Below, in pieces: positions 7,815-42,584 of a stretch of DNA of 64,000 nt. The stretch is from Heptranchias perlo. Its lineage: Eukaryota. The number at the start of each line of letters is the position of its first letter. Position 1 is the stretch's first letter. The position numbers and the translations under genes are program-made. The notes below the pieces were generated by a model. That model made no database searches. It saw only the letters and a list, made by a program, of their open reading frames with translations, and was not told the DNA's origin. The stretch is from the NCBI RefSeq assembly GCF_035084215.1, contig NC_090340.1:5952001-6016000 (forward strand), read 5' to 3'.

Positions 7815-9990
7815 AGGGCCCCATCACCCTGTATGATTGATATGGACCCCATCACCCTGCATTATTGATATGGACACCATCACCCTGCATTATTGATATG
7901 GACACCATCACCCTGCATTATTGATATGGGGCCCCATCAACCTGCACTCTTGACATAGGCCACATAACACTACATTCCTTAAATGGGCCACGACACCGTA
8001 CAGTCCTGATATGGGTCGCCATCACTCTGCGTTCCTCATATTGGCCACCATCAACCTACATTCCTTATATTGGCCCCATAACCCTACATTCGTGATATTG
8101 GTCCTATCACCCTACATACAAATGGGGGAAATTATAATGGGGAACAAATAAATGGCAGAACAATTAAACACATACTTTGGTTCTGTCTTCACAAAGGAGG
8201 ACACAAATAACCTCCCGGAAATGTTAGGGAATCAAGGGTCTAGTGAGAGGGAGGAACTGAAGGAAATCAGTAATATTAAAACAAATAGTGCTAGGGAAAT
8301 TAATGGGGCGAAAGGCTGACAAATCCCCAGGGCCTGATAATCTACATCCCAGAGTACTAAAGGAAGTGGCCCTGGAAATAGTGGATGCATTGGTGGTCAT
8401 CTTCCAAAATTCTATAGACTCTGGGACAGTTCCTACAGATTGGAGGGGGGCAAATGTAACCCCACTATTTAAAAAAGGAGGGAGAGACAAAAACAGTGAA
8501 TTACAGACCAGTTAGCCCAACATCAGTAATGGGGAAAATGCTGGCGTCAATTATAAAAGATGTGATAACAGAATACTTGGAAGGCATTAACGGGATTGGA
8601 CAATGTCAGTATGGGTTTATGAAAGAGAAATCATGCTTAACAAATCTACTGGAGCTTTTTGAGGATGTAACTAGTAGAATAGATTGGGGCGAACATGTGG
8701 ATGTGGTGTACTTGGATTTTCAGAAGGCTTTTGATAACGTCCCACACAAGAGGTTAGTGTGCAAAATTAAAGCACGTGGGATTGGGGGGAATATAATTGC
8801 ATGGATTGAGAATTGGTTGACAAACAGGAAGCAGAGAGTAGGAATGAACGGGTCTTTCTCTGGGTGGCAGGCGGTGCCTAGTGGGGTACCGCAGGGATCA
8901 GTGCTTGGGCCCCAGCTATTCACAAAATATATCAATGATATGGATGAGGGAACTGAATGTAACATTTCCAAGTTTGGGGTGCAATGTGAGCTGTGAGGAG
9001 GACGCAAAGAGGCTCCAATGTGACTTGGACAAGTTGGGTGAGTGGGCAAGAACATGGCAGATGCAGTATAACGTGGATAAATGTGAGGTTATCCAATTTG
9101 ATTGTAAAAACAGAAAGGCGGATTATTATCTGAATGGTGATAGATTGGGAAAAGGGGAGGTGCAACGAGACCTGGATGTCCTTGTACACCAGTCGCTGAA
9201 AGTGAACATTCAGGTGCAGCAAGCAGTTTGGAAGGCGAATGGCATGTTGGTGTTCATTTCAAGAGGATTTGAGTACAGGAGCAGGGATGTCTTACTGCAG
9301 TTGTACAGGGCCTTGGTGAGACCACATCTGGAGTAGTGTGTGCAGTTATGTTCTCATTATCTGAGGAAGGATGTCCTTGCCATGGAGGGAGTGCAACGAA
9401 GGTTTACCAGACTGATTCCTGGGATGGCAGGACTGATGTATGAGGAGAGATTGGGTTGACTAGGCCTATATTCACTAGAGTTTAGACGAATGAGAGGTGA
9501 TCTCATCAAAACGCATAAAATTCTAATAGGACTGGATAGATTAGATGCAGGGAGGATGTTCCCGATGGCAGGGGAATCCACAACCAGGGGTCACAGTCTC
9601 AGGATACGGGTAATGCCATTTAGAATCGAGATGAGGAGAAATTTCTTCACTCAGAGGGTGGTGAACCTATGGAATTCTCTAACACATAAGGCAGTGGAGG
9701 CCAAGTCATTAAATATATTGAAGAAGGAGATAGATATATTTCTTAATGCTAAAGGGATCAAGGGATATGGGGAAAAAGAGGGAACAGGGTACTGAGTTAG
9801 ACGATCAGCAATGATCATTTTTATTGGCGGAGCAGGCCCGAAGGGCCGAATGGCCTACTCTTGCTCCTATTTTCTATGATTTTACGATTCGATGACTCCT
9901 GATATGGGCCCCAACACCCTACATTCCTGATAAGGGCCGCATCGCCCTACATTGTTGATATGGCCGCCCACCCTGCATTCCTGATGCTGC
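7815..9990. repeat. About 28-bp degenerate minisatellite (GGGCCCCATCACCCTGCATTATTGATAT-like), split by a CR1 insertion
   Basis: Units at 7815-8118 and again at 9895-9990. Confidence 0.85.
8119..9890 (+). mobile_element. CR1 LINE, 5'-truncated
   Basis: [45 protein letters not shown] and a typical 3'UTR. Confidence 0.95.
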
Positions 9991-10525: not shown

Positions 10526-11263
10526 AGCAGAAAGCACACACAGATACAAACTTTCTCTCTCACACACACGCACAAACACACACACACACACGCACACACA
10601 CTACACAGTAATGTCTGTTCGACATTATTTAATCTGTTCTTAAACAGAAAAAAGTAAGCACTTTACAAGACTAATTCTTCCTTACAGTTAAATCAGCATA
10701 CAGACACTTCAAACAGAATAAGGTGGCTCCGGGTCCCCTGGTATCTGTCCTGTGGGTGACTGCACAAGTTGGATGACTATATTCAGAAAGGTAAACTATT
10801 GATTCTATAAACTCTGAAATTAGATTGTATCCTGAAAATTTGCACAGTCGTCCAGTAATTCCTCGGTATATGAGAGATGGACGTGTGTGTAAAATACTTA
10901 GCGCAAGATAGTTTGTCTGTAGCACTGAGTGGAAGATGGCTGTGGGTGTGTAACGGTTAGTGAGAGATGGGTGTGTCTGTAACACTGAATGGAAATGGTT
11001 GTGGGTGCACAACAGTTGAATGTGGGCGTGTAACAGGGAGTGACATTTTCACACTCTGATAGTTTTATTTTGTTGCTGTGAATACCTCGATGGATAAGAA
11101 AGTGGAGGAGGAGCAGCCAATGTCTAAGGAAACAATCCGTCCAGACATCTAAAGTCACAAAAGAAGGTTTCGATCTGAGATGGAAAGTCTCCTCATTTTG
11201 CTTTTTTTTCTCAACTATTATATTTCTGCGTCGATGTCCTGACTCAAGAAATGAATGTCTTAC

Positions 11264-11346
11264 CCATAAAATGAGTCTGATTTCAAATGGTCCACAATGA
11301 GGGTGTTCCCCATCAGAATCACCGCTAAACCCAACAGGAAACGACA
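11264..11346 (-). pseudogene. Decayed mirror copy of the TM exon
   Basis: Reads CRFLLGLAVILMGNTLIVDHLKSDSFY then GG|gtaag. Clearly homologous to 23239-23321, but the original acceptor AG is mutated and about 23 bp of the exon 5' end is deleted. Confidence 0.8.
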
Positions 11347-11784
11347 CTGATGGAGCGAGGTGGGGAGCAATAGGATAGAAATTTAAACGAGCATGATGAA
11401 AAAATGCAGAGAGAGAGCGAGTGGTAGACAGAGAGTTAACTGAAGATCATAAATGTGTTGGATACAAGGGCTGTGTGTTTAAAGGTTTATTTCGAAGGAG
11501 CTTCAGTTTCAGTGAGATTAGATCACAGGCATTAACGGACCACCGAAACTGATCTACAAACAAACAGATTCAACACCGTGACCGCTCAGTTCTTTGCTAA
11601 GAGCACCCAGCCTTTCTGCAAATTAAACGCTCCGGAAACCATCAACTAGTCTGAGAACACGTAACGGCATCACCTCTATGCGGTGTCCTGATAGTAAACC
11701 ATTTTAGCCCGTCTATCCCAGAACAACCAATATCCTTATAGCCATCATCACTGATATCACCTCCTGTCTGCCTTTAACGTGTCA

Positions 11785-16201: not shown

Positions 16202-16256
16202 ATGTCTATACGTGATGTTTTGCGATACCTCTCAGCTGTGGCCATTATTTGCACAG
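16202..16256 (+). CDS. Exon 1 (signal peptide) of VJ-C1-TM Ig-superfamily receptor
   Basis: ATG at 16202 reads MSIRDVLRYLSAVAIICT then G|gtttat (phase-1 donor, somewhat weak); lies 191 nt upstream of the V exon and splices in frame. Confidence 0.7.
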
Positions 16257-16447
16257 GTTTATTTATGTATACCTATCTGTTAAGTGGGAAAATGTGAATA
16301 AAAAGTCCATTAGCAGTATGGTGGCAGCTTCTGCTCAATGTTTATTGCAATTTTCTCATTTCCTTTCGTTCTACTTCTGTCACATTATTTCCTCCCTTTT
16401 GATCCCCACGATCACTATCCCTGACTATAACCTGTGTTTGTGTTTAG

Positions 16448-16777
16448 TTCTGACAGTTATTAATGGGACCGCTCTCACAGTGACTCAGCTCCCTGCCCGC
16501 CTGACTCCGGTGAAAGGCACAAATGTCTCCATGTATTGCTCTGTGCCCCGCTTCGATCACAACGCAATGGTGGATGTTTACTGGCGGAGATCCGGCCAGG
16601 ACGGGATTTTGGATTCGAGTGCAGACAAAAGGAAAACATTTAAACCATTGAAGAAAGGATCTGCCGAGTTTCACCTGCTGAATGTAGGTTTCCAGGACTC
16701 TGGAATCTATTATTGCAGCATGAGAGATTGGAGAGGAAAGATTTCCAACGGGAATGGGACTGAGCTTATTGTACATG
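16448..16777 (+). CDS. Exon 2: V-set Ig domain with germline-joined J-like strand
   Basis: Acceptor tttag| (an in-frame alternative gacag| gives 16457). Reads LTVTQ..NVSMYC..VYWRR..FHLLNVGFQDSGIYYC..GNGTELIVH; donor G|gtgagt, phase 1. Confidence 0.92.
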
Positions 16778-17284
16778 GTGAGTATCGCTGAGGGTTAATG
16801 AACCTTCGTAAAATTCTATGAGTGTAGATTAGGGAATATTTAACAAAGATCAGCAATGATGCGTTTTCTGACAGGACTTTTGATGTTTCTCTCAGTTCGG
16901 TTCGGTGCGGCTCCTTTCCCCCTATTTGCAGTGAATCCTGTCAGTTTACACAGAGCAGCACCTCTTACCCTGCACGAGGCAGTGGAATTCAGATTGTCTC
17001 ACTTCAGTCAATCGTTGTTCCCTTATCCCCTTTTACCGACATTCCGGAGTCCATGGACTTTTCCCGAGGGCCTGGTGATTCAAACCTGGGATACAAGAGT
17101 GACATTGTCAGTAACTGTTAGTAAATAGATACAAGTATCACACAGAGACAGGGGAATAGGAATGAGGGGAGCAGAGCAAATCCAGGAGCGAACCATGAAA
17201 TAATCAACCGGACAGAGAGGAGTGACAGGGTAACGCTGAATAAAATTGTACTGCATAAAATTCTAGATTGTACGTCCACTAACG

Positions 17285-17510
17285 TTAGATTATATTTACA
17301 CCTATAGATGAATTTACACGCATAGATTTATTTACACTGATTATAAATTTCACTTACACGGATAGATTTATTTACACAGATTATAGAATACAGTTACACT
17401 GAAATGCATTTACACTGATTATAGGTTTCACTTACACGGATAGTTTTATTTACACTGATTATGGAATTCAGTTACACTGATAGATTTATTTATAGTGATT
17501 ATAGATTTTA
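17285..17510. repeat. AT-rich degenerate minisatellite (ATAGATTTATTTACACTGATT-like) in the V-C1 intron
   Basis: About ten 21-22 bp units visible. Confidence 0.8.
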
Positions 17511-18226
17511 CTCCGGGAATGTAATCCTGTAATCATGTAGGACTAGGCTGGACTTCTGATGTCCACTTGAGGCACTTTATCCAAACTGTGGATTTGTTCC
17601 AAATACAATAGAGCTGGTTAGTAAAAAGCTCCACCTTTAAAATTGATAATTTTGAAATCGACACCAGAGGGTAAGAGGCGAGATTATAATTGAGAATCTG
17701 AAGAAGGGAGAATGGGGTTTTCAAACATTGGATAAGGAACATTTCCATAAAATAGATGTAAATCCATACCGCGCGGCCCATGCATGGATCATCTCCTGTC
17801 CCAATTCAGTCTGTGTCTCGAGTAGTATCTCGGCGGGAAAGCCGAGTGTATTTCCCATGGATCCCAGTGTCAGTGTGGGAATCATGTTTGAAATGAGGGA
17901 TGGAGCAGGTGGTTCGGAGGACAAGTTCGTGACACGAGATCACCTAAGGAAAAGGAGTTAACAAACGCGAGTAACCATCTGAGATGAGAGGGGTCTGCAA
18001 TTAAAAGATGGAAATATCTTCCGCTCCCTTTGATGTGGGGGGTGGGGTGTTTACTGGAAAATACCAGTTGCTGGGATGCTGTTTATCATGTAGTTGGATT
18101 GGAATGACCAAAAAAACTAAAGTTCTCACAAGCGGTCTATGGTCTGGGGGTCATTCTCAAAATGTAAAACTCCTCAATTAAAAGAGAGAAGAAAATGTCA
18201 AAGGGAATAAAAAGAGACAAAAGGCA

Positions 18227-18360
18227 GATCTTGACTTTGTGCGATTGTGTAAAACGGTTGATGGCGAGTCGGCCGCCATGGAAATCAAAATGGGGAGAGG
18301 TGTAAAGCGGGCTGCCGATTCGCTATCACCACTTTCAGACTATGGCACAAAGTCAAGATC
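18227..18360. mobile_element. MITE-like palindromic element (relatives near 19471-19616, 20480-20630, 55914-55990, 57410-57491)
   Basis: Perfect 16-bp terminal inverted repeat GATCTTGACTTTGTGC / GCACAAAGTCAAGATC with extended imperfect pairing. Confidence 0.75.
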
Positions 18361-20038
18361 AACCTCAAGAAGCGGGTCTGTGGGAGGATTGGGATGAGCA
18401 ATATCTGATACGGTTACATGCGGTGGACCCTGATCCGTCCCACAGGGGTCTGTACTGGACCAGTAGACCCAGTAGAAATACACTTTAATTCTGATCATTT
18501 ATTATTCAAACAGCCTCCACAGGAGACGAGCCTATTGGGATAATGGAATTCAGAGTGGGGTTGCATTATAATTTTCCCATTAACAAACCGTTGACTAGCC
18601 CACAGCCGAGGAGTCAGTGTCAGTGTGAGTGTTCCTTTAGAGAAAGACCATTAATTCTAAGGAGAAAATGCAAAGCGAATTCAGTGACATGATCCGAGGG
18701 ATGAGAGAAGATGATTATCCACTGATCTGTTTAGGAGAAACAATGGGTCATAAAATTAGAATCAGATCTAGAAACAGAAAGGTGAAGGGAGAAGATTCAT
18801 CTTCACTCCACGGTTGATTAGAGTATGGAATTGATCGGCGCACGAGGCTACCGAAGAGAATCAAAGACAAGGTTTCGGGGAGAATTCGACCAACAGTTGA
18901 AGAAAAATGCATGGAGAAAGGCAAGGGAAAGGATTGGGGTAGGGGGCTGGGAGCTGGACTGTGGCGGCCCGGGCACGTTGCCTCCAACTGTGCTTAACTT
19001 TCTATGAATTCACTCGAAAACAAGGAGGATAAACGAGACAGGCAATCCGAGCGAGGCGGGGCTTCGGGGGTACCCAGCTTATCCCGATCAAGATATGGGT
19101 TAAACATAGGCCATTTCACAGGGTCAGATTTCTGCCCACAATCCCGCCCCTCAAGGCTCCCAGTCGGGAGCGCAGTCTCCCTGAATTGACTTGTTCCCAA
19201 AGATGTCATTGAAACGGATCTCTGTTAGAGCAGAATCGCCGCCTTATCCGTCATATTTGTGAGCTGGTTATTTTGATATGATTTGGCCGCCACATCGATC
19301 TGCACATTGTACCTGAACAAGAGCGAAGTGTTGAAGTCATTCATGCAGATCGACTGCCGGCGTCAGGACCTGATTATCTCGGAAATGAACCGAGTGGGTG
19401 AGCTCTGGTATCGGACAGCCTCACCGCTGTTAGACACTGACAACAATTCCAAGACTGGAACGGAGACAATGGGTGATAGCGAATCGGCAGCCTGTTTTAC
19501 ATCTCTTCCGATTTTTATTTGCATTGAAGTCAGTGGAATGAAAAATCGGGAAATTTAAACGGGAAGTGGATTCGCTATCACCCGTTTTACACAATCACAC
19601 GGTCAAAATCTACTCCAATTACTTTTCGTATTGTTCGATTCAGTTAACACGCAGTCTGTGAACCTATATTAGTGAAGGTAATGTCTCCCTGTTAGTGACT
19701 CTGAAACCTATTTAAAACCGAATGTGTAAGTCACAGTGAATCACCTGCAGAAATAGGCACGGGTTCTGTTCAACTTGGACATTAACTTTCAATGCCCAGA
19801 CATGGGGGCCTTCCCGTTGACCGAGTCCTGGATCAAGACAAGAACGAATTAAATATCACTATTCACTGTTTTGATCAAAACAGCCGTTCGTTATGCATTC
19901 TAATATGGCGGTGTAATTTCCCTCTAAAAGGGACTCTGCAGATGCTCCATGCTCTCCCTTCTCGCCCTCTGTTCTTTCCTTTCTCTAATATAATATACGA
20001 GTAGTGATTTCAACTCAATTCCTTTAACTCCTTTCCAG

Positions 20039-20320
20039 TGCCGCCAACTCCTGTGAAGATTACCCGCCTGCTCTCTCCGTCTCTCACACTCCTCTGTACA
20101 ACGGCTGCTTTTTTCCCCGAGGAGTTTAACCTCACTTGGTATCAAAATGGCTCCGAAATTAAATCTGGGATAAACACGGTGCAGACACGGAGCGAAGAGG
20201 GATTGTATCAAGTTTTCAGCTCCCTCATCTCTGTGCAGAGTGGGACGGTTTATATCTGCCGGGTGTCCCATGCCTCTCTCCCGGCTCCAGCTGACGACAG
20301 CTACACGGTTCGTGATCCGG
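20039..20320 (+). CDS. Exon 3: C1-set Ig constant domain
   Basis: Polypyrimidine tract plus ttccag| acceptor. Reads PPTPVKI..LTLLCTTAAFFPEEFNLTWYQNG..GLYQVFSSL..YICRVSHASL (CxxxxFFP, W, YxCxVxH); donor G|gtaag, phase 1. Confidence 0.92.
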
Positions 20321-22611
20321 GTAAGAGACCCACATTCTCAGCACTGGAATAAACTGTATCTGTGTTACATATAGGAGCCATTCAGGGACTTTCTGTCACC
20401 ACTAATCCACGCCTGAACATTCTCAATGCAGTCAGTGTGTATGGGGTGACTGTGCTCATTGCAATTTCAAAAAGCTTTCGATCTTGACTTTGGAGATATG
20501 TAACCGACGTCTGAATCCATATCGCCCCATTTATACTATCACCCAAGGTCAAAATTAGCCCCGGTCAGTCTGCCGAAAATCGGGTATAACAGGCGGCAGA
20601 TGCGCTACCGCCCAAAATTGAATTTGACCCCATTATCTCCTCTGTACTTTCCTGCTCAAAGCCTGGTCTGGCTCTCCACCCGACCATTGCTACAGCCGGC
20701 CCCTGGCGAGCCCTCGTTCCGCTGCTCATAGCCCTAGTCTAGCTGTCCATTAACCCTTCCCCCTTCGGGCATCTGTCTGGTCTCCACCTCTCGTGGCTAG
20801 TGGCCTGCACTTTCTCTCTGCCCCCATTTCCTCACTGCCCTCTCTCCCTACCCATTCCTCTCCACTTCCTCCCCAGTTCATCTTAATGCCCTCTTGGTCC
20901 CGTCAAATATCACCTGCTTCCCTTTCTAAGCCGCCCCCCACCCCCGCACACACACACTCCTTCTCCTCCTCCTCCGCATCTCTTCTCTCTCTCCTCGGCC
21001 CAACATCTTCCATCCATTATTCCCACCCTTCATTCCGGTAGTCTATCCCAGTTCTACCTCCCCTCTTCCCACTCCGCCGTCCCCTTTGGCTTCCTCTGGA
21101 CTCCATGGTCGCCGCCTTCCCTCACCTCGGCCCAGTTACCACCTGCTATATATTTCAGTTCAACGGAGGACTACATTTAGTTTTCACTCCCCCTGTGAAA
21201 CACCAGGAGATTGCGACTAGTACTAATATAGTGGGTAGCATTTCCACGGGTCTCCCGATATTCGGCGGAAGATCCGCAAAACCCTGGAGATAGGGCGTGA
21301 GCAGCTTTAATTATATCGCTCAGAATCAATAAGCATTTATTTGTTATGTAAAAAGAAACTTAAAAATGTATGGCGTACAGAATAACTGAACAATATCTTG
21401 GTCGAATCATTTCCTGCTAAAAACCTTACTTCACCCGAAGTGCGGGATTTGGGGGGGTGGGGGGGACTTTGAGGGGTTTCTTCCCATTGACGTTGGATCA
21501 GCGAAACAGCAGTTCGGTAACTCGAGAAAAAAAGGCATAAATGCCGTTTACTCCCTTTCCAGTGTTTCTGAAGCGTTTCCGCTAAAGTTACGGCGAACTT
21601 ACGGGAGAAGCTCGCGTGGAAATTCACCCCCTCGGTCTTTACTTCATCGCGCAAAGCCATCGGATATTATCCACTAATATTATATCAATAACGATCCGTC
21701 CTGGGACCAAAGGCCCGAAATCACTGTTGACGATACCATCAGTCAAAAGCTAAACGCCTTTACATCATGTTTTGGCCGCTAGTTAGTGGGAGTGTTCATC
21801 CGTTTATAATAAACCCCTCAACAGCTGTATTAAAACAGTGAGGAACATCGGACAGACACAATGAGACATCGGAATTGTCTATATTTATATATTCACCAAT
21901 AGTAACGTTGAAGCAAAACATGTCCAGTGACAGAAGAGAGAAGTTGAAATAAGTTTCAAGAAATAAGAATATTATTTGGCTGATACATGATCAGAAGGTT
22001 CATGATTGGCATCCGAATTGTTTTCTGCTCAGCTCACTGTGGTACAATCCCTCGTGTGAAGTAATGAAGAAAGCAAAATATGTTCAGACATCAATAAAAT
22101 CGACTCCAGAATGCAAGTAATAAAAATCAACAAATGAAATTTTCCGTTGAAGCAAATATCAGACACACTGGCCCAGAAAATAAATACCCTGCACCGGGTA
22201 CAGTCCACCCGGATTGTCACGACAGCACTGACTCTAAGGTTTCAGAGCGTGCGAGCAGGTATGGAGATCGTCAGTCCCAATATTCAGGACTAAATCAATC
22301 ATAGCGCCGTCATAAATTGGATCAATTCCAACTGAATGGACAGCAGGCAGACAGGAAGTGATGTCAGTGGAGTGATGTAGCGAAAACTAGTTGTTGACCC
22401 CGCTCTCCGACAGTGTAATCTGCAGAGGGGATGGGGGCTCAGAGAGAAGACCCGAGAAGTCACTTGTGCTGCGGACATTAAAGCTGTTTGTCTGTACATC
22501 GATTTCAGTGTTTGGTATATGCCTGTGATATAATCTCACTGGGGCTCAGGTACTGCAGTAAATCCTCAAAAACACAGTCCTTGAAACGAACACACCCACT
22601 GTCATCAGTGA

Positions 22612-23150
22612 GCACTCTCTCTCTCTCCCTCTCCCTCTTTCTCTCTCTGCTTCGCTNNNNNNNNNNNNNNNNNNNNNNNNNNNNNNNNNNNNNNNNNNNN
22701 NNNNNNNNNNNNNNNNNNNNNNNNNNNNNNNNNNNNNNNNNNNNNNNNNNNNNNNNNNNNNNNNNNNNNNNNNNNNNNNNNNNNNNNNNNNNNNNNNNNN
22801 NNNNNNNNNNNNNNNNNNNNNNNNNNCTTTTTGCATCTCAGTCGCTCTCTCTCTCTCTCATTCTCTATGTATGTATATATATATATACATGTCTCTCTAC
22901 CCGTGTCTGTCTCTTTGTCTCTATCTATCTATTATCCCTGTCCCTCTCACTGTCCATCTCTCTCTCTCTGACTGTCTGTCGCTCTCTGTCTGTTTCTATT
23001 TATCTATTTCTCCCTCTCTCTCTCTCTCTGTCTGTCCGTCTGTGTGTCTGACTCTATCTATCCATTTTCCCTCTCTCTCTGTTAATCTATTTATCTCTCT
23101 CTCTCTCTATCTATTTATCTATTTCTCCCTCTCGGTCTCTTTCTTTTTAA
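22612..23150. repeat. CT-rich simple repeat containing a 170-N assembly gap (22657-22826)
   Basis: Directly visible. Confidence 0.95.
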
Positions 23151-23206
23151 CTCTACTGTTTTTTCACTAAACTCCTTTAATTGTCCTTTCTGTATCTGCC
23201 CACCAG

Positions 23207-23319
23207 CCTCCACAGACCGATTCCCAACCTTGAACTTCTGCCGTTTCCTGTTGGGGTTAATGGTGATTCTACTGGGAACCACCATCATTGTCGACCATTT
23301 GAAATCAGTCCCCTTTTAA
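23207..23319 (+). CDS. Exon 4: stalk, Arg-containing transmembrane helix and short tail, ending in stop
   Basis: Acceptor ccag|, phase 1, reads ASTDRFPTLNFCRFLLGLMVILLGTTIIVDHLKSVPF*. The four exons total 780 nt = 259 aa plus stop with no frameshift. Confidence 0.8.
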
Positions 23320-23539
23320 AGGTAAGATATTGATTTCTTGATTCAGATAATTTCCGTGGAATTATAGTAATCAAACACAGGAAACAAAATAATAGAATCC
23401 TTATTTTGCGACTTTAGATGTCTGGGTCGATTGTTTGCCTGGACATTGGCTGCCATTCATTCATCTTCACTTTCTTATCTATCCGAGTGTTCACAGCAAG
23501 AAAGGTAAACCATTTTACAGGGTGTAAAAGTGCCACTCA

Positions 23540-25022
23540 GAGTTATACATACACCCATCTCTCACTCACTCTTACTTTACACCGCCATCTCTCACTCATT
23601 ATTACTTCACACACACATATTTCACTCACTGTTACTTACACAACCATCGCTCACTCACTGCTACTCACATAGATCCCTCGCTCAATTGGTACTCACACAC
23701 CTATCTCTCATTCACTGTTACTCGCACACCCATTACTCACTAAATTGTTGCTCACACATCAATCTCTCACTCACACACATCTACATAAGAACATAAGAAA
23801 TCGGAGCAGGTGTAGGCCATACGGCCCCTCGAGCCTGCTCCATCATTCAATCAAATCATGGCTGATCTTCGACCTCAACTCCACTTTCCCGCCCAATCCC
23901 CATATCCATTGATTCCCCTAGAGTCCAGAAATCTATCCATCTCAGCCTTCAATGACTCAGCATCCACAGCCTTCTGGGGTAAAGAATTCCAAAGATTCAC
24001 AACCCTCTGAGTGAAGAAATTCCTCCTCATCTCAATCTTGGATGGCTGCCCCTTTATCCTGCGACAATGCCCCATCATAATCATACACGCATCTCGTACT
24101 CACTGTTACTCACATACCCTTCTCTCACTCTCTGTGACTCACACACTCATCTCTCAATCACTGCTACTCACACAGGCATCTCTCACTCACTGTTACTCAC
24201 ACAGACATCTATCTCTGACAGTTACTCACACGTCCATTTCTCACTCAGTGTTACTCACACATCTATCTCTCACTCACACACCCATTTCTCACTCATTGTT
24301 ACTCACACACATCTCTCACCCACTGTTAATCACACACATCTCTCACTCAGTTGTTACTCACACACCCATTGCTCACTCACTGTTACTCACTAACCGATCT
24401 CTCACTCACTGTTACTTGCAGACACATCCCTCACTCACCGTCACACACCCATTGCTCACTCACTGTTACTCACTAACCGATCTCTCACTCACTGTTACTT
24501 GCAGACACATCCCTCACTCACCGTCACACACCAATTGCTCACTCACTGTTACACACATCTCTCACTCACTGTTACACACACACATCTCTCACTCAATTGT
24601 TACTCATACACATTTCTCACTCAATTTTACTCACACACCCAATGCCCACTCACTGTTACTCACCAAACTATCTGTCATTCACACACCCATCTCTCACTCA
24701 CCGTTACTCACACATCCATTGCTCACTCACTGTTACTCATACACCTATCTCTCACTCACTGTTAATTTACAAAGATATATCTCATTCACTGTTACTTTGC
24801 ACACACATTTTGCACTCACTGTTACTCATACAACCATCACTCACTCACTGGAACTCATATACATTTCTCACTCAATTCTTACTCACACCCTATCTCCCAG
24901 TTACACATTCATCTCTCACTCACTGTCACTCGCACACCCATCTCTCACTCATTGTTACTCACACAGGCATCTCTCTCTCACTGTTACAAACACAGTCACC
25001 TTTCACTGGCAGTTACACACAC
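23540..25022. repeat. Degenerate ~30-bp tandem array (CACCCATCTCTCACTCACTGTTACTCACA-like)
   Basis: Directly visible; source of the His/Thr/Ser/Leu-rich spurious ORFs. Confidence 0.92.
23784..24075 (-). mobile_element. CR1 3' fragment inserted in the tandem array
   Basis: CATAAGAACATAAGAA tail; RRNFFTQRVVNLWNSLPQKAV. Confidence 0.92.
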
Positions 25023-27096
25023 ACCCAGGAAACTCAAAATATATTAGCTCCTCGTTCTATCCAATGCAGAAATGGGCGTGTGAGTAACAGTGAGTGAGAG
25101 ATGGATGTGTGAGTAACAGTGAGTGAGAGTTTGGTGTGTGAGAACCAAGAGCCTGCTGCACCAGAGGCTGGAAATGGAGATAATGGAGCAAGAGTCCTGA
25201 AGCAGAGGAATAGACCTGTATTTCAGCAGGGCGCTGTTTGTACTGCACCATAATGGCAGGGAGGTCCCAGGTTGCATTGCTGGTCTGCTGATTTAGCTGA
25301 TCTCAGCCGGGGCAGTGTCAATTCGACTTGATGTCCCTGGGCTATTGAAGGACAGCGGTTTGCAAACGTTTCCAGCCTCTGGTGCAGCAGGCTCTTGGTT
25401 CTCGTATTTGGAGCTGTTGTATCAAGTTCAGACCCATTCAATGTGATCACTTCTTGAGGGATTATCACATTGCATGAGGGGGATAATCACACATCATATG
25501 GCGCCTCTTTTGTAACCCCGGCTTAATTCACAAAGCAATATCCTGGCACCGTGAGTCTCGGTAGAAGATCAATTAAAACTAACCGGTGATTCTGATCTCG
25601 GATTTGGTGCTCACTTTGTTTCAGCATCAACTGTTTCCGGTTCATTCTGAAATCAACTTTCTTTTTAACAGCAACACACCTGATGACAAACTGGCAGCAG
25701 CTGCTCCTGATTTCACCGACTCCAGGAAAGCATCGAATTAATGTCAATGAATCAATGCAGGGTCTGAGCTGACGGGGATTATAAAGTGGAAAGTCGATTT
25801 GAAGGGGTTCATTCTGCATTGGATAGAACGAGGAGCCAATATATTTGGAGTTTCCTGGGTAAAAGGCGCCGTTCACCCATTTGTAATTGTCTAACACACG
25901 ATCCGTGCCATTAATGGGGCAGAAAGTCAGTTTGAGGATAATCAAATCCTTCAATGTGATGGGTAGGTTAGAGTAAAGATTTTCCCGCGCCCAGAATCCA
26001 CCGGAAATCATCATAAATGAATTGTGCCAGCTTCGCGTCAGTTTCAATTGTTTTCCTCGATTTCGAGGCAGTTTCTTTGACAAAATGTAAATTATCCGTT
26101 ATTGGAGGCTGAGTAATTTCTGTTCCTACATTTGTTGAATATGAGAATGGTTTATATCAGGAATAAATGGTGCTGGGGGGCCCATGTCAGGAATGCAGAG
26201 TATTGGAGGCGTTCGGCAATGAACGTGTCTCTGCTTCTCAATATCAAACTATTTGCCCTGTATTCAAGCGCTATTTCTAAACATGGGCCCCGAACCCTGA
26301 CAGTCATTGACAGGCCTTTAAAGACTGTAACACGTGAGCGTTCGCTGCCGGTAATAAAAGGGATTAAATGAACACAGCAAATTACACTTTTATTTTCTCT
26401 TACTTTTAATTCAGGAAAAAACTGTTTTAACAAATCCCCGCATCAGACGAATAGCAATAAAATTAATGCTCATCGAAATATTAACAATACGGGGGGAATG
26501 TGAGCATGCGATGACAGCAGAATGATTCTGAGAGCATGGACAGGAGTGGAGTCCCTGCCCAGATACAGTGAGGGGCTGGAGAAATAAAGTGAGCACTGGA
26601 ATTGAACTGGCTCTGTCAGCGTGGATATACACATTTCCTGGGATAGAACTACCCGAGTTCGGCCCCACTCACATCATCAGCTGGGGACTAGTACACAGAG
26701 AACATTCTCAGTCTCCAAATGTGTGAACGGTTTTTACACTGGGAGCAATCGTGGACTGTGTTAAACAGGGACAGTTACCAAATTGGAACTGATCTCTGCG
26801 CTCACAGTTAATCGGAGGTGCTCTACATAAATATTCATAGGATCCCGTGTGTGCAGGGCATCGACACTCTGCCCTTGTAAAGTCAGCTGAACTTGGACTG
26901 AACACGGTATGATCAGTGGGGGAGAGGTCACTGTGATTGAAGAGGGAAAACACTAAGATTGAGGAGTCGAGCCGCCCTTTAGACTGATATTTACTCCACA
27001 CACTCCAGTTACCGTCCTCTAATCATTAATGGACTCATGAGTCTCGTCACTCAGGAGTTTCTGACTGATGCTTCCTGTTACCCATCTAACGAATAG

Positions 27097-36810: not shown

Positions 36811-37239
36811 TACTATGAAGACATGGAAGAATATTTTTCGCACAACGGTAGACAAAACGTCAATGCTGGACAACAATTATAAAGATTGTGAATGTATTCC
36901 CGGAAAATATTTAACGTGTTAGCCTTTTCCTTATCTTTACTCCGAAGATCTTGCTACAAATTAAAATACAAGAATAACTTGTGGTAAAATTTCAGAATGG
37001 AACTTGAGAAGTTTGGAATGACTCTCTTCGTTCCAGTGTCCGCAGCCGGGGAGCGGATGTGGAGATGTTGCATCAACAGGTACAAATTGTGTGGCGCCTT
37101 TCAGCTACCTTCTACACGGAGTGTCATTTTTAAAAACACTGATACAGGAAAATGCAAAAAATAAAATAGTTCTCTATTTCCCGAGATAGAAGCTCTCATT
37201 GATCAGCGACTTGAACAGAAGTAAATTCTATTTGCTTTT

Positions 37240-38233
37240 TTATTTTGTGATATGGGTTCCCAACACACTGTCCGGGTCCTTGAGCTCAACCTGCCCGTAC
37301 ACTGTGGTCTCCTCCTGCCCATACACTATGGTCTCCTCCTGCCCGTACACTATGGTCTCCCCCTGCCCGTACACTGTGGTCTCCTCCTGCCCGCACACTA
37401 TGGTCTCCTCCTGCCCATACAATATGGTCTCCTCCTGCCCATACACTATGGTCTCCTCCTGCCCATACAATATGGTCTCCTCCTGCCCATACACTATGGT
37501 CTCCTCCTGCCCGCACACTATGGTCTCCCCCTGCCCGTACACTGTGGTCTCCTCCTGCCCGTACACTATGGTCTCCTCCTGCCCGTACACTATGGTCTCC
37601 TTCTGCCCGTACACTATGGTCTCCTCCTGCCCATACACTATGGTCTCCTCCTGCCCGTACACTATGGTCTCCTCCTGCCCATACACTATGGTCTCCTCCT
37701 GCCCGTACACTATGGTCTCCTCCTGCCCGTACACTATGGTCTCCTCCTGCCCGTACACTATGGTCTCCTCCTGCCCATACACTATGGTCTCCTCCTGCCC
37801 GTACACTATGGTCTCCTCCTGCCCGTACACTATGGTCTCCTCCTGCCCATACACTATGGTCTCCTCCTGCCCTTACACTATGGTCTCCTCCTGCCCGTAC
37901 ACTATGGTCTCCTCCTGCCCGTACACTATGGTCTCCTCCTGCCCATACACTATGGTCTCCTCCTGCCCTTACACTATGGTCTCCTCCTGCCCGTACACTA
38001 TGGTCTCCTCCTGCCCTTACACTATGGTCTCCTCCTGCCCGTACACTATGGTCTCCTCCTGCCCATACACTATGGTCTCCTCCTGCCCGTACACTATGGT
38101 CTCCTCCTGCCCGTACACTATGGTCTCCTCCTGCCCGTACACTATGGTCTCCTTCTGCCCGTACATATTCCTTCTGACCGACGAAATCTAGAGCACGGTA
38201 TATCACTTTTTCTTCAGCTCCCATTTGCGGAAT
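37240..38233 (-). pseudogene. Cytoplasmic ITIM/ITSM exon of the inhibitory-type paralog, interrupted by a minisatellite
   Basis: ctactacag|IPQMGAEEKVIYRALDF (ITIM VIYRAL at 38189-38206). The far end reads EETTVYGQVELKDPDSVLGTHITK* in a frame shifted by 1 nt. Lies 3.3 kb downstream of the TM exon on the same strand. Confidence 0.62.
37291..38166. repeat. 24-bp minisatellite, about 36 copies (GTACACTATGGTCTCCTCCTGCCC)
   Basis: Directly visible and highly homogeneous; explains the four overlapping repetitive ORFs. Confidence 0.98.
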
Positions 38234-38597
38234 CTGTAGTAGTGTTCAGAAATAATGTTAATATTCTGTCTTCACCAGTAAGTAGATTGCTAAATCACAC
38301 AATCTTGAATAGATCGGCAGAGGAAGAGGCAGCTGCGAACTGTGAGTACCGACCAGACCTTCTTTCACCCGCCTGCATACACTCGGTACACCTCAATTCT
38401 GAGCCATGCTGCCGCTTTCATCATGGTGTTCTGCCAATTTTCCAACGAAATTAAAATGAGAGACTGGAAGATTCCCATGAAATTTCACAGCCCATCTGTC
38501 CATGGTGAGTTTCAGTAAAATATTGTGGGGCTTTTTTCCCCAGAAACCTAATTGGCCCGCTGCACAGATTTTCTGATTTACAGAAGAGTCGACAATT

Positions 38598-41348
38598 CAT
38601 ACAATCATAGAATCATAGAAGTTTACAACATGGAAACAGGCCCTTCGGCCCAACATGTCCATGTCGCCCAGTTTATACCACTCAGCTTGTCCCAATTTCC
38701 TGCACTTGGCCCATATCCCTCTATACCCATCTTACCCATGTAACTGTCCAAATGCTTTTTAAAAGACAAAATTGTACCCGCCTCTACTACTGCCTCTGGC
38801 AGCTCGTTCCAGACACTCACCACCCTTTGAGTGAAAAAATTGCCCCTCTGGACCCTTTTGTATCTCTCCCCTCTCACCTTAAATCTATGCCCCCTCGTTA
38901 TAGACTCCCCTACCTTTGGGAAAAGATTTTGACTATCTACCTTATCTATGCCCTTCATTATTTTATAGACTTCTATAAGATCACCCCTTAACCTCCTACT
39001 CTCCAGGGAAAAAAGTCTCAGTCCATCCAACCTCTCCCTATAAGTCAAACCATCAAGTCCCGGTAGCATCCTAGTAAATCTTTTCTGCACTCTTTCTAGT
39101 TTAATAATATCCTTTCTATAACAGGGTGACCAGAACTGTACACAGTATTCCAAGTGTGGCCATACTAATGTCTTGTACAACTTCAACAAGACATCCCAAC
39201 TCCTGTATTCAATGTTCTGACCAATGAAACCAAGCATGCTGAATGCCTTCTTCACCATCCTATCCACCTGTGACTCCACTTTCAAGGAGCTATGAACCTG
39301 TACTCCTAGATCTCTTTGTTCTATAACTCTCCCCAACGCCCTACCATTAACGGAGTAGGTCCTGGCCCGATTCGATCAACCAAAATGCATCACCTCACAT
39401 TTATCTAAATTAAACTCTATCTGCCATTCATCGGCCCACTGGCCCAATTTATCAAGATCCGGTTGCAATCCTAGATAACATTTTTCACTGTCCACAATGC
39501 CACCAATCTTGGTGTCATCTGCAAACTTACTAACCATGCCTCCTAAATTCTCATCCAAATCATTAATATCAATAACAAATAACAGCGGACCCAGCACCGA
39601 TCCCTGAGGCACACCGCTGGTCACATGCCTCCAGTTTGAAAAACAACCCTCTACAACCACCCTCTGTCTTCTGTCGTCAATACAATTTTGTATCCAATTG
39701 GCTACCTCACCTTGGATCCCGTGGGATTTAACCTTATGTAACAACCTACCATGCGGTACCTTGTCAAAGGCTTTGCTAAAGTCCATGTAGACCACGTCTA
39801 CTGCACAGCCCTCATCTATCTTCTTGGTTACCCCTTCAAAAAACTCAATCAAATTCGTGAGACATGATTTTCCACTCACAAAACCATGCTGGCTGTACCT
39901 AATCAGTCCCTGCCTCTCCAAATGCCTGTAGATCCAGTCTCTCAGAATACCCTCTAACAACTTACCCACCACAGATGTCAGGCTCACCGGTCTGTAGTTC
40001 CCAGGCTTTTCCCTGCCGCCCTTCTTAAACAAAGGCACAACATTTGCTACCCTCCAATCTTCAGGCACCTCACCTGTAGCTGTCGATGATTCAAGTATCT
40101 CTGCGAGGGGACCCGCAATTTCCTCCCTAACCTCCCATAACGTCCTGGGATACATTTCATCAGGTCCCGGAGATTTATCTACCTTGATGCGCTTTAAGAC
40201 TTCCAGCACCTCCCTCTCTGTAATATGTACACTCCTCAAGACATCACTATTTATTTCCCCAAGTTCCCTAACATCCATGCCTTTCTCAACCGTAAATACC
40301 AATGTGAAATATTCATTTAGGATCTCACCCATCTCTTGTGGTTCCGCACATAGATGACCTTGTTGATCCTTAAGAGGCCCTACTCTCTCCCTGGTTACTC
40401 TTTTGCCCTTTATGTATTTGTAGAAGCTCTTTGGATTCTCCTTTGCCTTATCTGCCAAAGCAATCTCATGTCCCCTTTTTGCCCTCCTGATTTCTCTCTT
40501 AACTCTACTCCGGCAATCTCCATACTCTTCAAGGGATCCACTTGATCCCAGCTGCCTATGCATGTCATATGCCTCCTTCTTTTTTTTGACTAGGGCCACA
40601 ATCTCCCGAGTCATCCAAGGTTCCCTACTTCTACCAGCCTTTCCCTTCACTTTATAAGGAATGTGCTTACCCTGAACCCTGGTTAACACACTTTTGAAAG
40701 CCTCCCACTTACCAGACGTCCCTTTGCCTGCCAACAGACTCTCCCAATCAACTTCTGAAAGTTCCTGTCTAATACCATCAAAATTGGCCTTTCCCCAATT
40801 TAGAATTTTAACTTTTGGGCCAGACCTATCCTTCTCCATAGCTATCTTAAAACTAATGGAATTATGATCACTGGTCCCAAAGTGATCCCTCACTAACACT
40901 TCTGTCACCTGCCCTTCCTTATTTCCCAAGAGGAGGTCAAGTTTTGCCCCCTCTCTAGTCGGGCCATCCACATACTGAATGAGAAATTCCTCCTGAATAC
41001 ACTCAACAAATTTCTCTCCATCCAAGCCCCTAATGCTATGGCTGTCCCAGTCAATGTTGGGAAAGTTAAAGTCCCCTACTATTACCACCCTATTTTTCTT
41101 GCAGCTGTCTGTAATCTCCTTACATATTTGCTCCTCAATTTCCCGTTGACTATTTGGGGGTCTGTAGTACAATCCTATCAAAATGATCTATCCCTTCTTA
41201 TTTTTCAGTTCTACCCATATAGACTCAGTGGGCGAACCCTCGGATATATCCCCTCTCACTACTGCCGTGATGTTCTCCCTAATCAAGAACGCAACTCCCC
41301 CTCCTCTCTTACCTCCTGCTCTATCTTTCCTATAGCATCTGTACCCTG
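38598..41348 (-). mobile_element. Young CR1 LINE with 7-bp TSD GACAATT, inside the inhibitory-type paralog
   Basis: 601-aa plus 237-aa ORF2 pieces; CATAGAAT tail repeats; GACAATT at 38591-38597 and 41349-41355. Confidence 0.96.
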
Positions 41349-41491
41349 GACAATTGTTCGTAGGTCTGATCGAATCTGTTTATCTCGATTGGTAAAATTA
41401 TTATATTTTTCTTTTTTACAGTAATATTTTAGAGTAATATTTTGAAACGTGAAAACCAACACAAATAAACTAGAGAAAAGGGGGTGCTTAC

Positions 41492-41605
41492 CTTTGAATC
41501 TATGCAATTTCGGTAGTTTCACTGTGGTGTTCACCAGTACCAGAATTAACAGTCCAAACCCGAAACAGAGATACATCAACACGAGTGGAAAACCGCGATC
41601 GGTAT
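41492..41605 (-). CDS. Transmembrane exon of a paralogous inhibitory-type receptor (possibly pseudogenic)
   Basis: tattttgcag| ... G|gtaagc, 114 nt, phase 1-1. Reads DTDRGFPLVLMYLCFGFGLLILVLVNTTVKLPKLHRFK. Shares the TDR-FP start and ttYaaag|gtaag end with the 23207 exon, but has no charged TM residue. Confidence 0.72.
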
Positions 41606-42584
41606 CTGCAAAATACATAGAACTGATACTTAAAATTCCAATTGATCAGTAACAGGGATTCTGTTAGAAGTCTGAGACAGTGAATAATCTCGTTCTGATA
41701 GGGAAGGAAATGTAAGATTATAACGGAATAAAAGATATAAGCTCTGAAATTCCGCAGGGGCTGTTCCGGGGTTTCGCCACAACTTCGGCAGGAGATCAGC
41801 GGAACCCCCAGTGAAATGACATAGGCCCTAAAATTGTATAGCACCATTAATGGTCTCCCTATATAACTTCGGCAAGACATCGACAGCAGCCCCAAAGAAA
41901 TAATTTAGATGGCCATGTTTAGTTTTTGCTTCTCTGGTGTTTCCGCTAGTCTCCCGTCCGAATTCTGCCGCTGGTACAGTGGCACCTCATGCAATTTCAG
42001 GCCTATGGAACCTCCCTCACCTGTGATATTAAAGATTCTCTCTCCGTCTCCCCTCTTCTACTTCTGTCTCCTTCTCTTTCCCCTTTTGCTCTCTGTCCCT
42101 AAGTTCTGTTGGCTTCTCTCTCAACCATCTTCTGCTTTCTTCTCGGCATATATATTCTATCCTTGGAGGTCGGAGGTAGTGAGTGGCACACAGTGTTGTG
42201 AAAGATGAAAGAGTAACTAATGGCTCTAAGCTGTCGTATGGGAGGGGATACGGGGAAACTCTGGCCCTCAGTAGATTCATTATCTTCCTCTTCCCAATTA
42301 TTCATGATCACCCACCCACTCATTGCTCTAATGTTCCTATCTCTTCACCTTTCTACTGTCACCTTCCCTTCATATCACTCTTTACCCCGATCAATGTCCT
42401 ACCTCTTCCTTATTGAACTCTCCTCTCATGCTCTACATACTCCTGTCCACTTGCTCCCCTGTCAACCCCCTTAACTGTAATCCGCTATCCTCTTCGCCAG
42501 TTCTGCTCTCCCAATTATACATCTATTGTCTGTGTTCAGGATCTAAGGCATCCTTGCCCTTTGCCGGTTTCTCACTCTCTCGTA

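What the first reader, a model, noticed from the sequence alone, without database searches (positions are those of the whole stretch)
37286..38233. Minisatellite born inside a phosphotyrosine-motif exon: about 36 copies of EETIVYGQ between ITIM and ITSM
Seen: on the - strand the 24-bp array starts right after VIYRALDFVGQK and its last unit runs into EETTVYGQVELK...*. The unit is therefore the ITSM-coding stretch itself, and TGTACGGGCAG is present at both ends of the array, a plausible slippage seed. The Tyr frame is offset by 1 nt from the ITIM frame and has TAA in three units (37873, 37969, 38017). The ITIM frame stays open throughout as (VRAGGDHS)n to 37286. Established: acidic-x-I/V-Y-G resembles the preferred Src-family substrate context. 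Inference: either a VNTR that tunes or once tuned tyrosine-motif copy number in a receptor tail, or an expansion that accompanied pseudogenisation.
Basis: partly seen in the sequence, partly recalled or inferred. Interest (0 to 1): 0.82.

Follow-up and report, generated by a model that had tools for sequence, protein, structure and literature searches.

The report
Minisatellite in broken shark receptor gene
A 24-base piece of a shark immune-receptor gene was copied 36 times in a row, but the gene is broken upstream of the copies, so this is most likely an ordinary DNA repeat and not a dial for immune signalling.

Summary
The array is real: 36 exact-length 24-nt units at 38154-37291 (- strand), three with TAA, 1 nt off the ITIM frame. 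The unit does derive from the last tyrosine motif of a shark V-C1 (SIRP-like) inhibitory receptor. A horn shark protein (P0081, XP_067905014.1) is the best match to the TM exon, the ITIM part and the ITSM part, and has one unit behind an 8-residue linker. The window has a 16-nt stub in place of that 24-nt linker, which causes the frameshift. The gene is broken independently of the array. The 39-residue segment with the first ITIM is missing, so the direct TM-to-last-exon splice stops after 6 residues. No V or C1 exon lies within 22 kb upstream. The unit cuts the motif at Y+2: of 31 tyrosines, 1 meets ITSM and none meets ITIM. The open ITIM frame carries no weight: 4 of 6 frames are open, 4.6 expected. 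Verdict: a neutral minisatellite in the orphaned last exon of a decayed or tail-less receptor gene. Copy-number variation and expression were not shown.

The parts
41492..41605 (-). Transmembrane exon, 114 nt, phase 1 to phase 1, open
   Evidence: AG/GT ends, acceptor score 4.6, donor score 7.1; 23 of 38 residues identical to P0081
38598..41348 (-). 5'-truncated CR1-type LINE in the intron, nearly intact ORF2 frame
   Evidence: 7-bp target-site duplication at 38591-38597 and 41349-41355; 2 internal stops in the ORF frame; contig arithmetic points to an empty site in sample S1
38234..41491 (-). Intron between TM exon and last exon (500 nt without the LINE); holds no trace of the relative's 39-residue segment with the first ITIM
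   Evidence: frameshift-aware alignment score 26, shuffled median 23, p=0.34; positive controls 76 and 60;
38171..38233 (-). Start of the last exon (phase 0), with ITIM VIYRAL at 38206-38189
   Evidence: 15 of 21 residues identical to P0081; weak acceptor, score 0.9
38155..38170 (-). 16-nt stub in place of the relative's 8-residue (24-nt) linker; site of the frameshift; its last 11 nt equal the end of a unit
37291..38154 (-). Minisatellite, 36 x 24 nt, 9 variants; TAA in units 6, 8, 12; Cys in units 27, 32; other variants mostly in units 24-36
37288..37305 (-). The only ITSM (TVYGQV), made of the last unit plus the first codon after the array
   Evidence: consensus TxYxx(V/I) from PMC12151841
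37239..37290 (-). Ancestral C-terminal coding stretch, stop at 37242-37240, overlapping AATAAA at 37244-37239
   Evidence: 11 of 20 residues identical to P0081 from the last unit on

Best explanation
The array is a neutral minisatellite born inside the last exon of a shark V-C1-TM inhibitory receptor gene that can no longer put that exon's motifs into its protein. Step 1 (shown by comparison): the ancestral exon held an ITIM and a second tyrosine motif 23 residues apart. Step 2 (inferred): a 24-nt tandem duplication of the E-E-T-T-V-Y-G-Q codons, between short microhomologies, began the array; slippage or unequal exchange expanded it and spread variant units. Step 3 (offset shown, order inferred): a deletion at the 5' edge left a 16-nt stub and shifted the frame. 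Step 4 (shown): the segment between the TM exon and this exon is gone, so the direct splice joins phase 1 to phase 0 and stops after 6 residues. Any transcript would encode a tail-less protein and carry the array as 3' UTR. More likely the locus is a pseudogene (inferred).
For: P0081 is the top match among 160 fetched proteins for each of three separate window pieces. Overall 49 of 79 residues are identical (62%), like the 57-58% of an intact sevengill/horn shark pair. The 39-residue middle segment is not found in six frames of the window or in the 500-nt empty-site intron (p=0.34). The direct splice stops after 6 residues. The best-scoring phase-correcting cryptic exons in non-LINE intron DNA (38463-38369, 38430-38369) are weak and contain a TGA. 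A 69-protein family HMM finds no V or C1 exon on the - strand anywhere in the window. Of the 7 distinct unit mutations, 1 is synonymous, 5 missense and 1 nonsense in the Tyr frame, as expected without selection. The nonsense variant sits in 3 units, two of them within the repeated block 'bdcbb' (4-unit block repeats p=0.027, 5-unit p=0.14). Of 31 Tyr, 0 meet ITIM and 1 meets ITSM. 4 of 6 frames are open, against 4.6 for shuffled units. In sample S1, listed contig pieces (X2) tile 38253-38590 and 41349-41800 with no extra exon, so the loss is not peculiar to this assembly.
Against: The TM exon and both motif-coding flanks are still open and no more diverged than an intact pair, so loss of function is recent or partial. 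In the ITIM frame 4 of 7 unit mutations are synonymous (P=0.08-0.12), a weak lean towards conservation. V and C1 exons could lie beyond the window edge, 22 kb upstream. That 38233 is a natural exon start is inferred from where homology begins and from module boundaries in P0085, not from a transcript. Orthology rests on one horn shark gene model; a search with its TM and tail returned only itself (1 of 25 candidates). S1 contigs could be a paralog rather than an allele.
Confidence: 0.8

Rival explanations
1. The gene is expressed through a weak alternative acceptor or an unrecognised exon, and its tail is the ITIM followed by 36 copies of a Gly-rich octapeptide in the shifted frame.
For: The frame is open for 315 codons and 4 of 7 unit mutations are synonymous in it. 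AG sites at 38217, 38211, 38205 and 38187 would be in frame with the TM exon by my arithmetic on their positions.
Against: Those AG sites score -10.7, -10.3, -13.5 and -1.4, against 0.9 for 38233; the best of them skips the ITIM tyrosine. Open frames are expected here. A search with the TM exon found no protein (0 of 16 candidates at E<=10; weak evidence by the tool's own note).
Confidence: 0.07
2. The array is, or was, a functional coding VNTR that sets the number of phosphotyrosine sites, and the window holds a null allele.
For: The unit comes from the tyrosine motif. Unit 1 starts with the same AAG codon as the Lys of GQK, which fits an earlier in-frame fusion of ITIM and array. The family does vary its module number: P0085 has repeated modules and 10 tail tyrosines.
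Against: Internal units lack a hydrophobic Y+3 (27 E, 2 G, 1 K), the position SH2 domains commonly prefer (PMC12151841). They also lack the acidic P-2 of the Src-optimal peptide. There is no sign of selection in the Tyr frame. The family adds whole 23-residue modules, not 8-mers. The diverged S1 sequence shows no middle exon either.
Confidence: 0.05
3. The frameshift, the TAA units or the copy number are assembly errors in an otherwise in-frame array.
For: Tandem arrays are hard to assemble (general knowledge). No listed contig piece was shown spanning 38155-38172 (table 8 is cut).
Against: All 36 units are exactly 24 nt and the variants recur in ordered blocks. The indel table for the laid runs, which is not marked as cut, has no row at the stub although that bin is covered. 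Even a repaired frame would not be reached, because the upstream splice stops first.
Confidence: 0.08

Closest known systems
Minisatellite origin by duplication between short flanking repeats (Haber and Louis 1998, as described in PMC6947457; passages seen)
   Same: A unit taken from local single-copy sequence, an 11-nt repeat at both ends, then expansion with recurring variant units.
   Different: The 5' 11-mer does not match the relative's protein at that place, so it looks like a leftover of a unit rather than a pre-existing seed. The substrate is a signalling-motif exon.
SIRP-alpha / SIRP paired receptors (PMC8281132 passage)
   Same: V-set plus C1-set ectodomain, four-tyrosine inhibitory tails in paralogs (P0003, P0004, P0006), short-tailed neighbours. 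NCBI names many family members 'tyrosine-protein phosphatase non-receptor type substrate 1-like'.
   Different: The shark neighbours have one C1, not two. This locus shows no ectodomain exon in the window and no usable tail. Ligand and synteny are untested.
XP_067905014.1, Heterodontus francisci (P0081)
   Same: TM, ITIM part and C-terminal part match in order (61%, 71%, 55%).
   Different: It has a 39-residue segment with a first ITIM, an 8-residue linker, a single motif unit and an open frame.
PD-1 ITIM + ITSM tail (PMC12151841 passages)
   Same: An ITIM followed by an ITSM about two dozen residues later.
   Different: PD-1's own consensus (I/V)(D/E)YG(E/V)L(D/E)F and (T/V)EYATIx(F/Y) is not met, and the family carries a C1 domain.
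Bacterial tyrosine-repeat effectors such as H. pylori CagA EPIYA and Chlamydia Tarp repeats (recalled; mentions only that CagA binds SHP-2)
   Same: What the array would work like if read in the Tyr frame: tandem acidic tyrosine sites whose number varies.
   Different: Those repeats are in frame and translated. This one is out of frame, holds stops and is not reached by the splice.

Membership tests
Minisatellite (VNTR) | Head-to-tail array of a unit of tens of bases | tested here: met
   36 x 24 nt, 95% matches
Minisatellite (VNTR) | Copy number varies between individuals | not testable with these tools
   Only short-word contigs of one sample are served; they give no copy number
Minisatellite (VNTR) | Born between pre-existing 5-10 bp flanking repeats | tested here: inconclusive
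Transposon-derived or dispersed satellite | Unit lies in a TE or at many loci | tested here: not met
   No other copy in the window; unit aligns to receptor tails; depth at the array edge 68/182 against about 10^6 on the LINE (a rough measure); no genome-wide search possible
ITIM | (S/I/V/L)xYxx(I/V/L) | tested here: met
   VIYRAL at 38206-38189 meets it; 0 of 31 array tyrosines do
ITSM | TxYxx(V/I) | tested here: met
   Only the last unit: 1 of 31 tyrosines
Src-optimal substrate | Acidic residue at P-2 (peptide EEEIYGEF) | tested here: not met
   P-2 is Ile or Thr in the units
SIRP family | One V-set plus two C1-set domains | tested here: not met
   Neighbour and paralogs have V plus one C1; this locus shows none in the window
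SIRP family | Tail with four tyrosines in two ITIM pairs | tested here: not met
   Met by paralogs P0003, P0004, P0006; P0081 has three; this locus keeps one pair, out of frame
SIRP family | CD47 binding and conserved synteny | not testable with these tools
   No genome held; no binding test run
Shark V-C1-TM paired receptor family (P0003-P0081 group) | TM exon followed by tyrosine modules with 23-residue spacing | tested here: met
   Three separate pieces best match P0081; spacing 23 in 36 of 40 matched modules
PD-1 | PD-1-specific motif consensus and a single V ectodomain | tested here: not met
Pseudogene | Disabling lesions relative to an intact relative | tested here: met
   Missing segment, phase clash with stop, frameshift, 3 TAA
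Pseudogene | No functional protein made | not testable with these tools
   A tail-less protein remains possible if V/C1 exons lie beyond the window

The most novel reading that the evidence does not exclude
The array arose in frame in a living receptor (GQK fused straight to the first unit), giving a vertebrate receptor tail with a variable run of up to about 30 acidic tyrosine sites between its ITIM and ITSM. Some haplotypes or sister species still carry that form, a host counterpart of bacterial EPIYA-type repeats.
Probability: 0.05. Interest if true: 0.75.

Novelty: new member of a known kind. Interest (0 to 1): 0.27.

Why it matters
As it stands this is a clear example of a minisatellite whose single-unit ancestor can be read from a relative, and a warning that motif-like repeats in an exon need a splice and frame check. 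The host family may matter more than the array: an expanded shark V-C1 paired-receptor cluster with a fixed 23-residue tyrosine spacing, which four literature searches (listings, plus passages of PMC10751288 and PMC12227049) did not show described. If an in-frame allele existed, it would allow a direct test of how tyrosine-site number changes inhibitory signalling.

Tried and rejected
Genome-wide search for the unit: no genome is held for this window. RNA evidence: no RNA holder listed; the two RNA-guess runs laid (X5, X6) gave no cover on the TM exon or the ITIM part; neither is used as evidence. A DQTYEQLS match next to the LINE as a relic of the missing exon: rejected, p=0.34. Pfam hits of the shifted frame to T4 gp5 C-terminal repeats and DUF2345 (59 and 50 bits, above their cut-offs): rejected as an 8-residue periodicity match, since the unit's origin is shown by the relative. 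Linking the - strand TM and tail to the + strand V-C1 exons: rejected, that gene has its own TM exon at about 23208-23316. PD-1 and UrIg identity: rejected on motifs and domain count. More orthologs: none beyond P0081; no protein holding the window's TM exon. Earlier findings of the scan: none. Literature on tyrosine-motif coding VNTRs in receptor tails: 3 and 1 listings, none on point; on this species' immune receptors: 2 listings, none on point. No structure or complex prediction was run, as neither would bear on splice or frame. No supplements were read; those of PMC12227049 and PMC11599192 may list members of this family.

Full report
Observation. The array is as described. TRF reports period 24, 36.5 copies, 95% matches and no indels. 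It splits into 36 units of exactly 24 nt at 38154-37291 on the - strand, in 9 variants, with a 16-nt stub at 38170-38155 whose last 11 nt equal a unit's end. TAA sits in units 6, 8 and 12; Cys replaces Tyr in units 27 and 32; 31 units keep Tyr. The ITIM frame runs 315 codons to a stop at 37288-37286. The unit occurs nowhere else in the window at up to 5 mismatches.

Setting. The window is shark DNA. A + strand gene at 16.2-23.3 kb has a V-set and a C1-set exon and is identical to proteins that NCBI names from Heptranchias perlo. Its paralogs have a TM segment and a four-tyrosine tail. A profile of 6 such proteins found 1637 relatives at E<=0.001, of which the best 150 were returned. I looked up names for 17 of the 150; the shark, ray and chimaera ones carry mixed automatic names, most often SIRP-alpha-like.

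The relative. One of them, P0081 (XP_067905014.1, Heterodontus francisci), is the best match among 160 held proteins to three separate pieces: a TM exon at 41605-41492, the ITIM part at 38233-38171 and the stretch from the last unit to the stop. Identities are 23 of 38, 15 of 21 and 11 of 20. The total, 62%, is like the 57-58% of an intact sevengill/horn shark pair. P0081 has one motif unit behind an 8-residue linker, which puts its two tyrosines 23 residues apart. That spacing holds in 36 of 40 modules caught by a pattern that allowed 22-29; these include isoforms and near-duplicates, and 2 of the 4 exceptions come from a bird SIRP-alpha-like protein. The window's 16-nt stub against the 24-nt linker explains the offset.

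The gene is broken apart from the array. P0081 has 39 residues, with a first ITIM, between TM and the ITIM part. They are not found in any frame of the window. A CR1-type LINE fills most of the intron, with a 7-bp target-site duplication. Without it the intron is 500 nt, and a frameshift-aware alignment finds nothing there (score 26, shuffled median 23, p=0.34; controls 76 and 60). The TM exon ends in phase 1 and the last exon starts in phase 0, so the direct splice stops after 6 residues. The best phase-correcting cryptic exons in the non-LINE part are weak and hold a TGA. In-frame AG sites inside the exon score far lower or skip the ITIM tyrosine (my own rough weight matrix). A 69-protein family HMM finds no V or C1 exon on the - strand; they may lie beyond the window, 22 kb from the TM exon.

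Another sample. Four DNA runs of one coded sample, S1, hold about half of the words of 36850-38590. Two of them and two RNA-guess runs were laid on 38131-41800. Around the TM exon the only contig differs by 19 letters and 3 gaps over 431-455 nt, so it is not the window's haplotype; it may be an allele or a paralog. One X2 contig ends on the window at 38590 with 54 letters left, exactly the length of 41349-41402, and the next listed contig starts at 41373. I infer an empty LINE site; the joint itself is not among the rows shown. The listed pieces leave no room for the middle exon, so its loss is older than the LINE. The three TM-exon differences shown are all missense (48 rows are hidden). No indel row appears at the stub, but no listed piece spans it, so the frameshift is not independently confirmed.

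No sign that the array is read. The unit ends at Y+2. Y+3 is E in 27, G in 2, K in 1 and V in 1 of 31 tyrosines, so none meets ITIM and only the last meets ITSM (consensus from PMC12151841 passages). The Src-optimal peptide has an acidic P-2 that matters for affinity (PMC4300553 passages); the units have Ile or Thr there. Of 7 distinct unit mutations, 1 is synonymous, 5 missense and 1 nonsense in the Tyr frame (expected synonymous share 0.21-0.24). In the ITIM frame 4 of 7 are synonymous (P=0.08-0.12), which leans slightly the other way. Four of six frames are open across the array and shuffled units give 4.6, so the open ITIM frame is uninformative.

How it arose. [quoted passage not shown] Variant units recur in blocks (4-unit repeats p=0.027, 5-unit p=0.14), and apart from the TAC/TAT/TAA position the variants lie in unit 1 and units 24-36. 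The 5' 11-mer is probably not the original seed, since P0081 reads Thr-Arg-His where it reads Tyr-Gly-Gln. Two histories fit the stub (inference): one deletion removing most of the linker and half a unit, or an in-frame fusion of the GQK codons with a unit followed by loss of 5 nt. Unit 1 starting with AAG favours the second. In both the frameshift follows the first duplication, which leaves room for an in-frame stage; whether the gene was alive then is unknown.

Comparison and verdict. It works like any locally born minisatellite and sits in a shark V-C1 paired-receptor family that resembles SIRPs but fails the V-C1-C1 criterion (PMC8281132 passage). I found no description of this array or family (listings; passages read for PMC10751288 and PMC12227049); the library lacks most subscription journals. 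Best explanation 0.80, novel case 0.05, interest 0.27.

Noticed in passing
window 16202-23316 (+): Intact V-C1-TM gene with an Arg at the start of its TM segment and a very short tail: a likely activating or tail-less partner in the cluster.
   Followed up: partly
window 25673-25740 (+): Decayed relic of a tyrosine-module exon downstream of the + strand gene; the ITIM tyrosine is gone. Suggests that gene lost an inhibitory tail.
   Followed up: partly
window 10870-11628 (-): Old inverted duplicate (68% identity) of the + gene's TM region at 22413-23711, with no AG at the matching acceptor position and no V or C1 exon on its strand: a second orphan TM exon.
   Followed up: partly
window 38598-41348 (-): Young 5'-truncated CR1-type LINE with a nearly open ORF2 and a 7-bp target-site duplication; probably absent at this site in sample S1. 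The element family is abundant in all four laid runs.
   Followed up: partly
window 38371-38372: Run X2 has 12 more letters here, between short direct repeats; the window looks like the deleted form.
   Followed up: no
proteins P0085, P0050: Family members with duplicated tyrosine modules (10 and 6 tail tyrosines): this family changes motif number by whole modules.
   Followed up: no
window 23551-25142, 7816-8117, 17314-17512: Other, more diverged tandem arrays (periods 28-30, 40, 57-58); short inverted copies flank the 24-25 kb array.
   Followed up: no
window 22657-22826: A 170-N assembly gap lies between the C1 and TM exons of the + strand gene.
   Followed up: no
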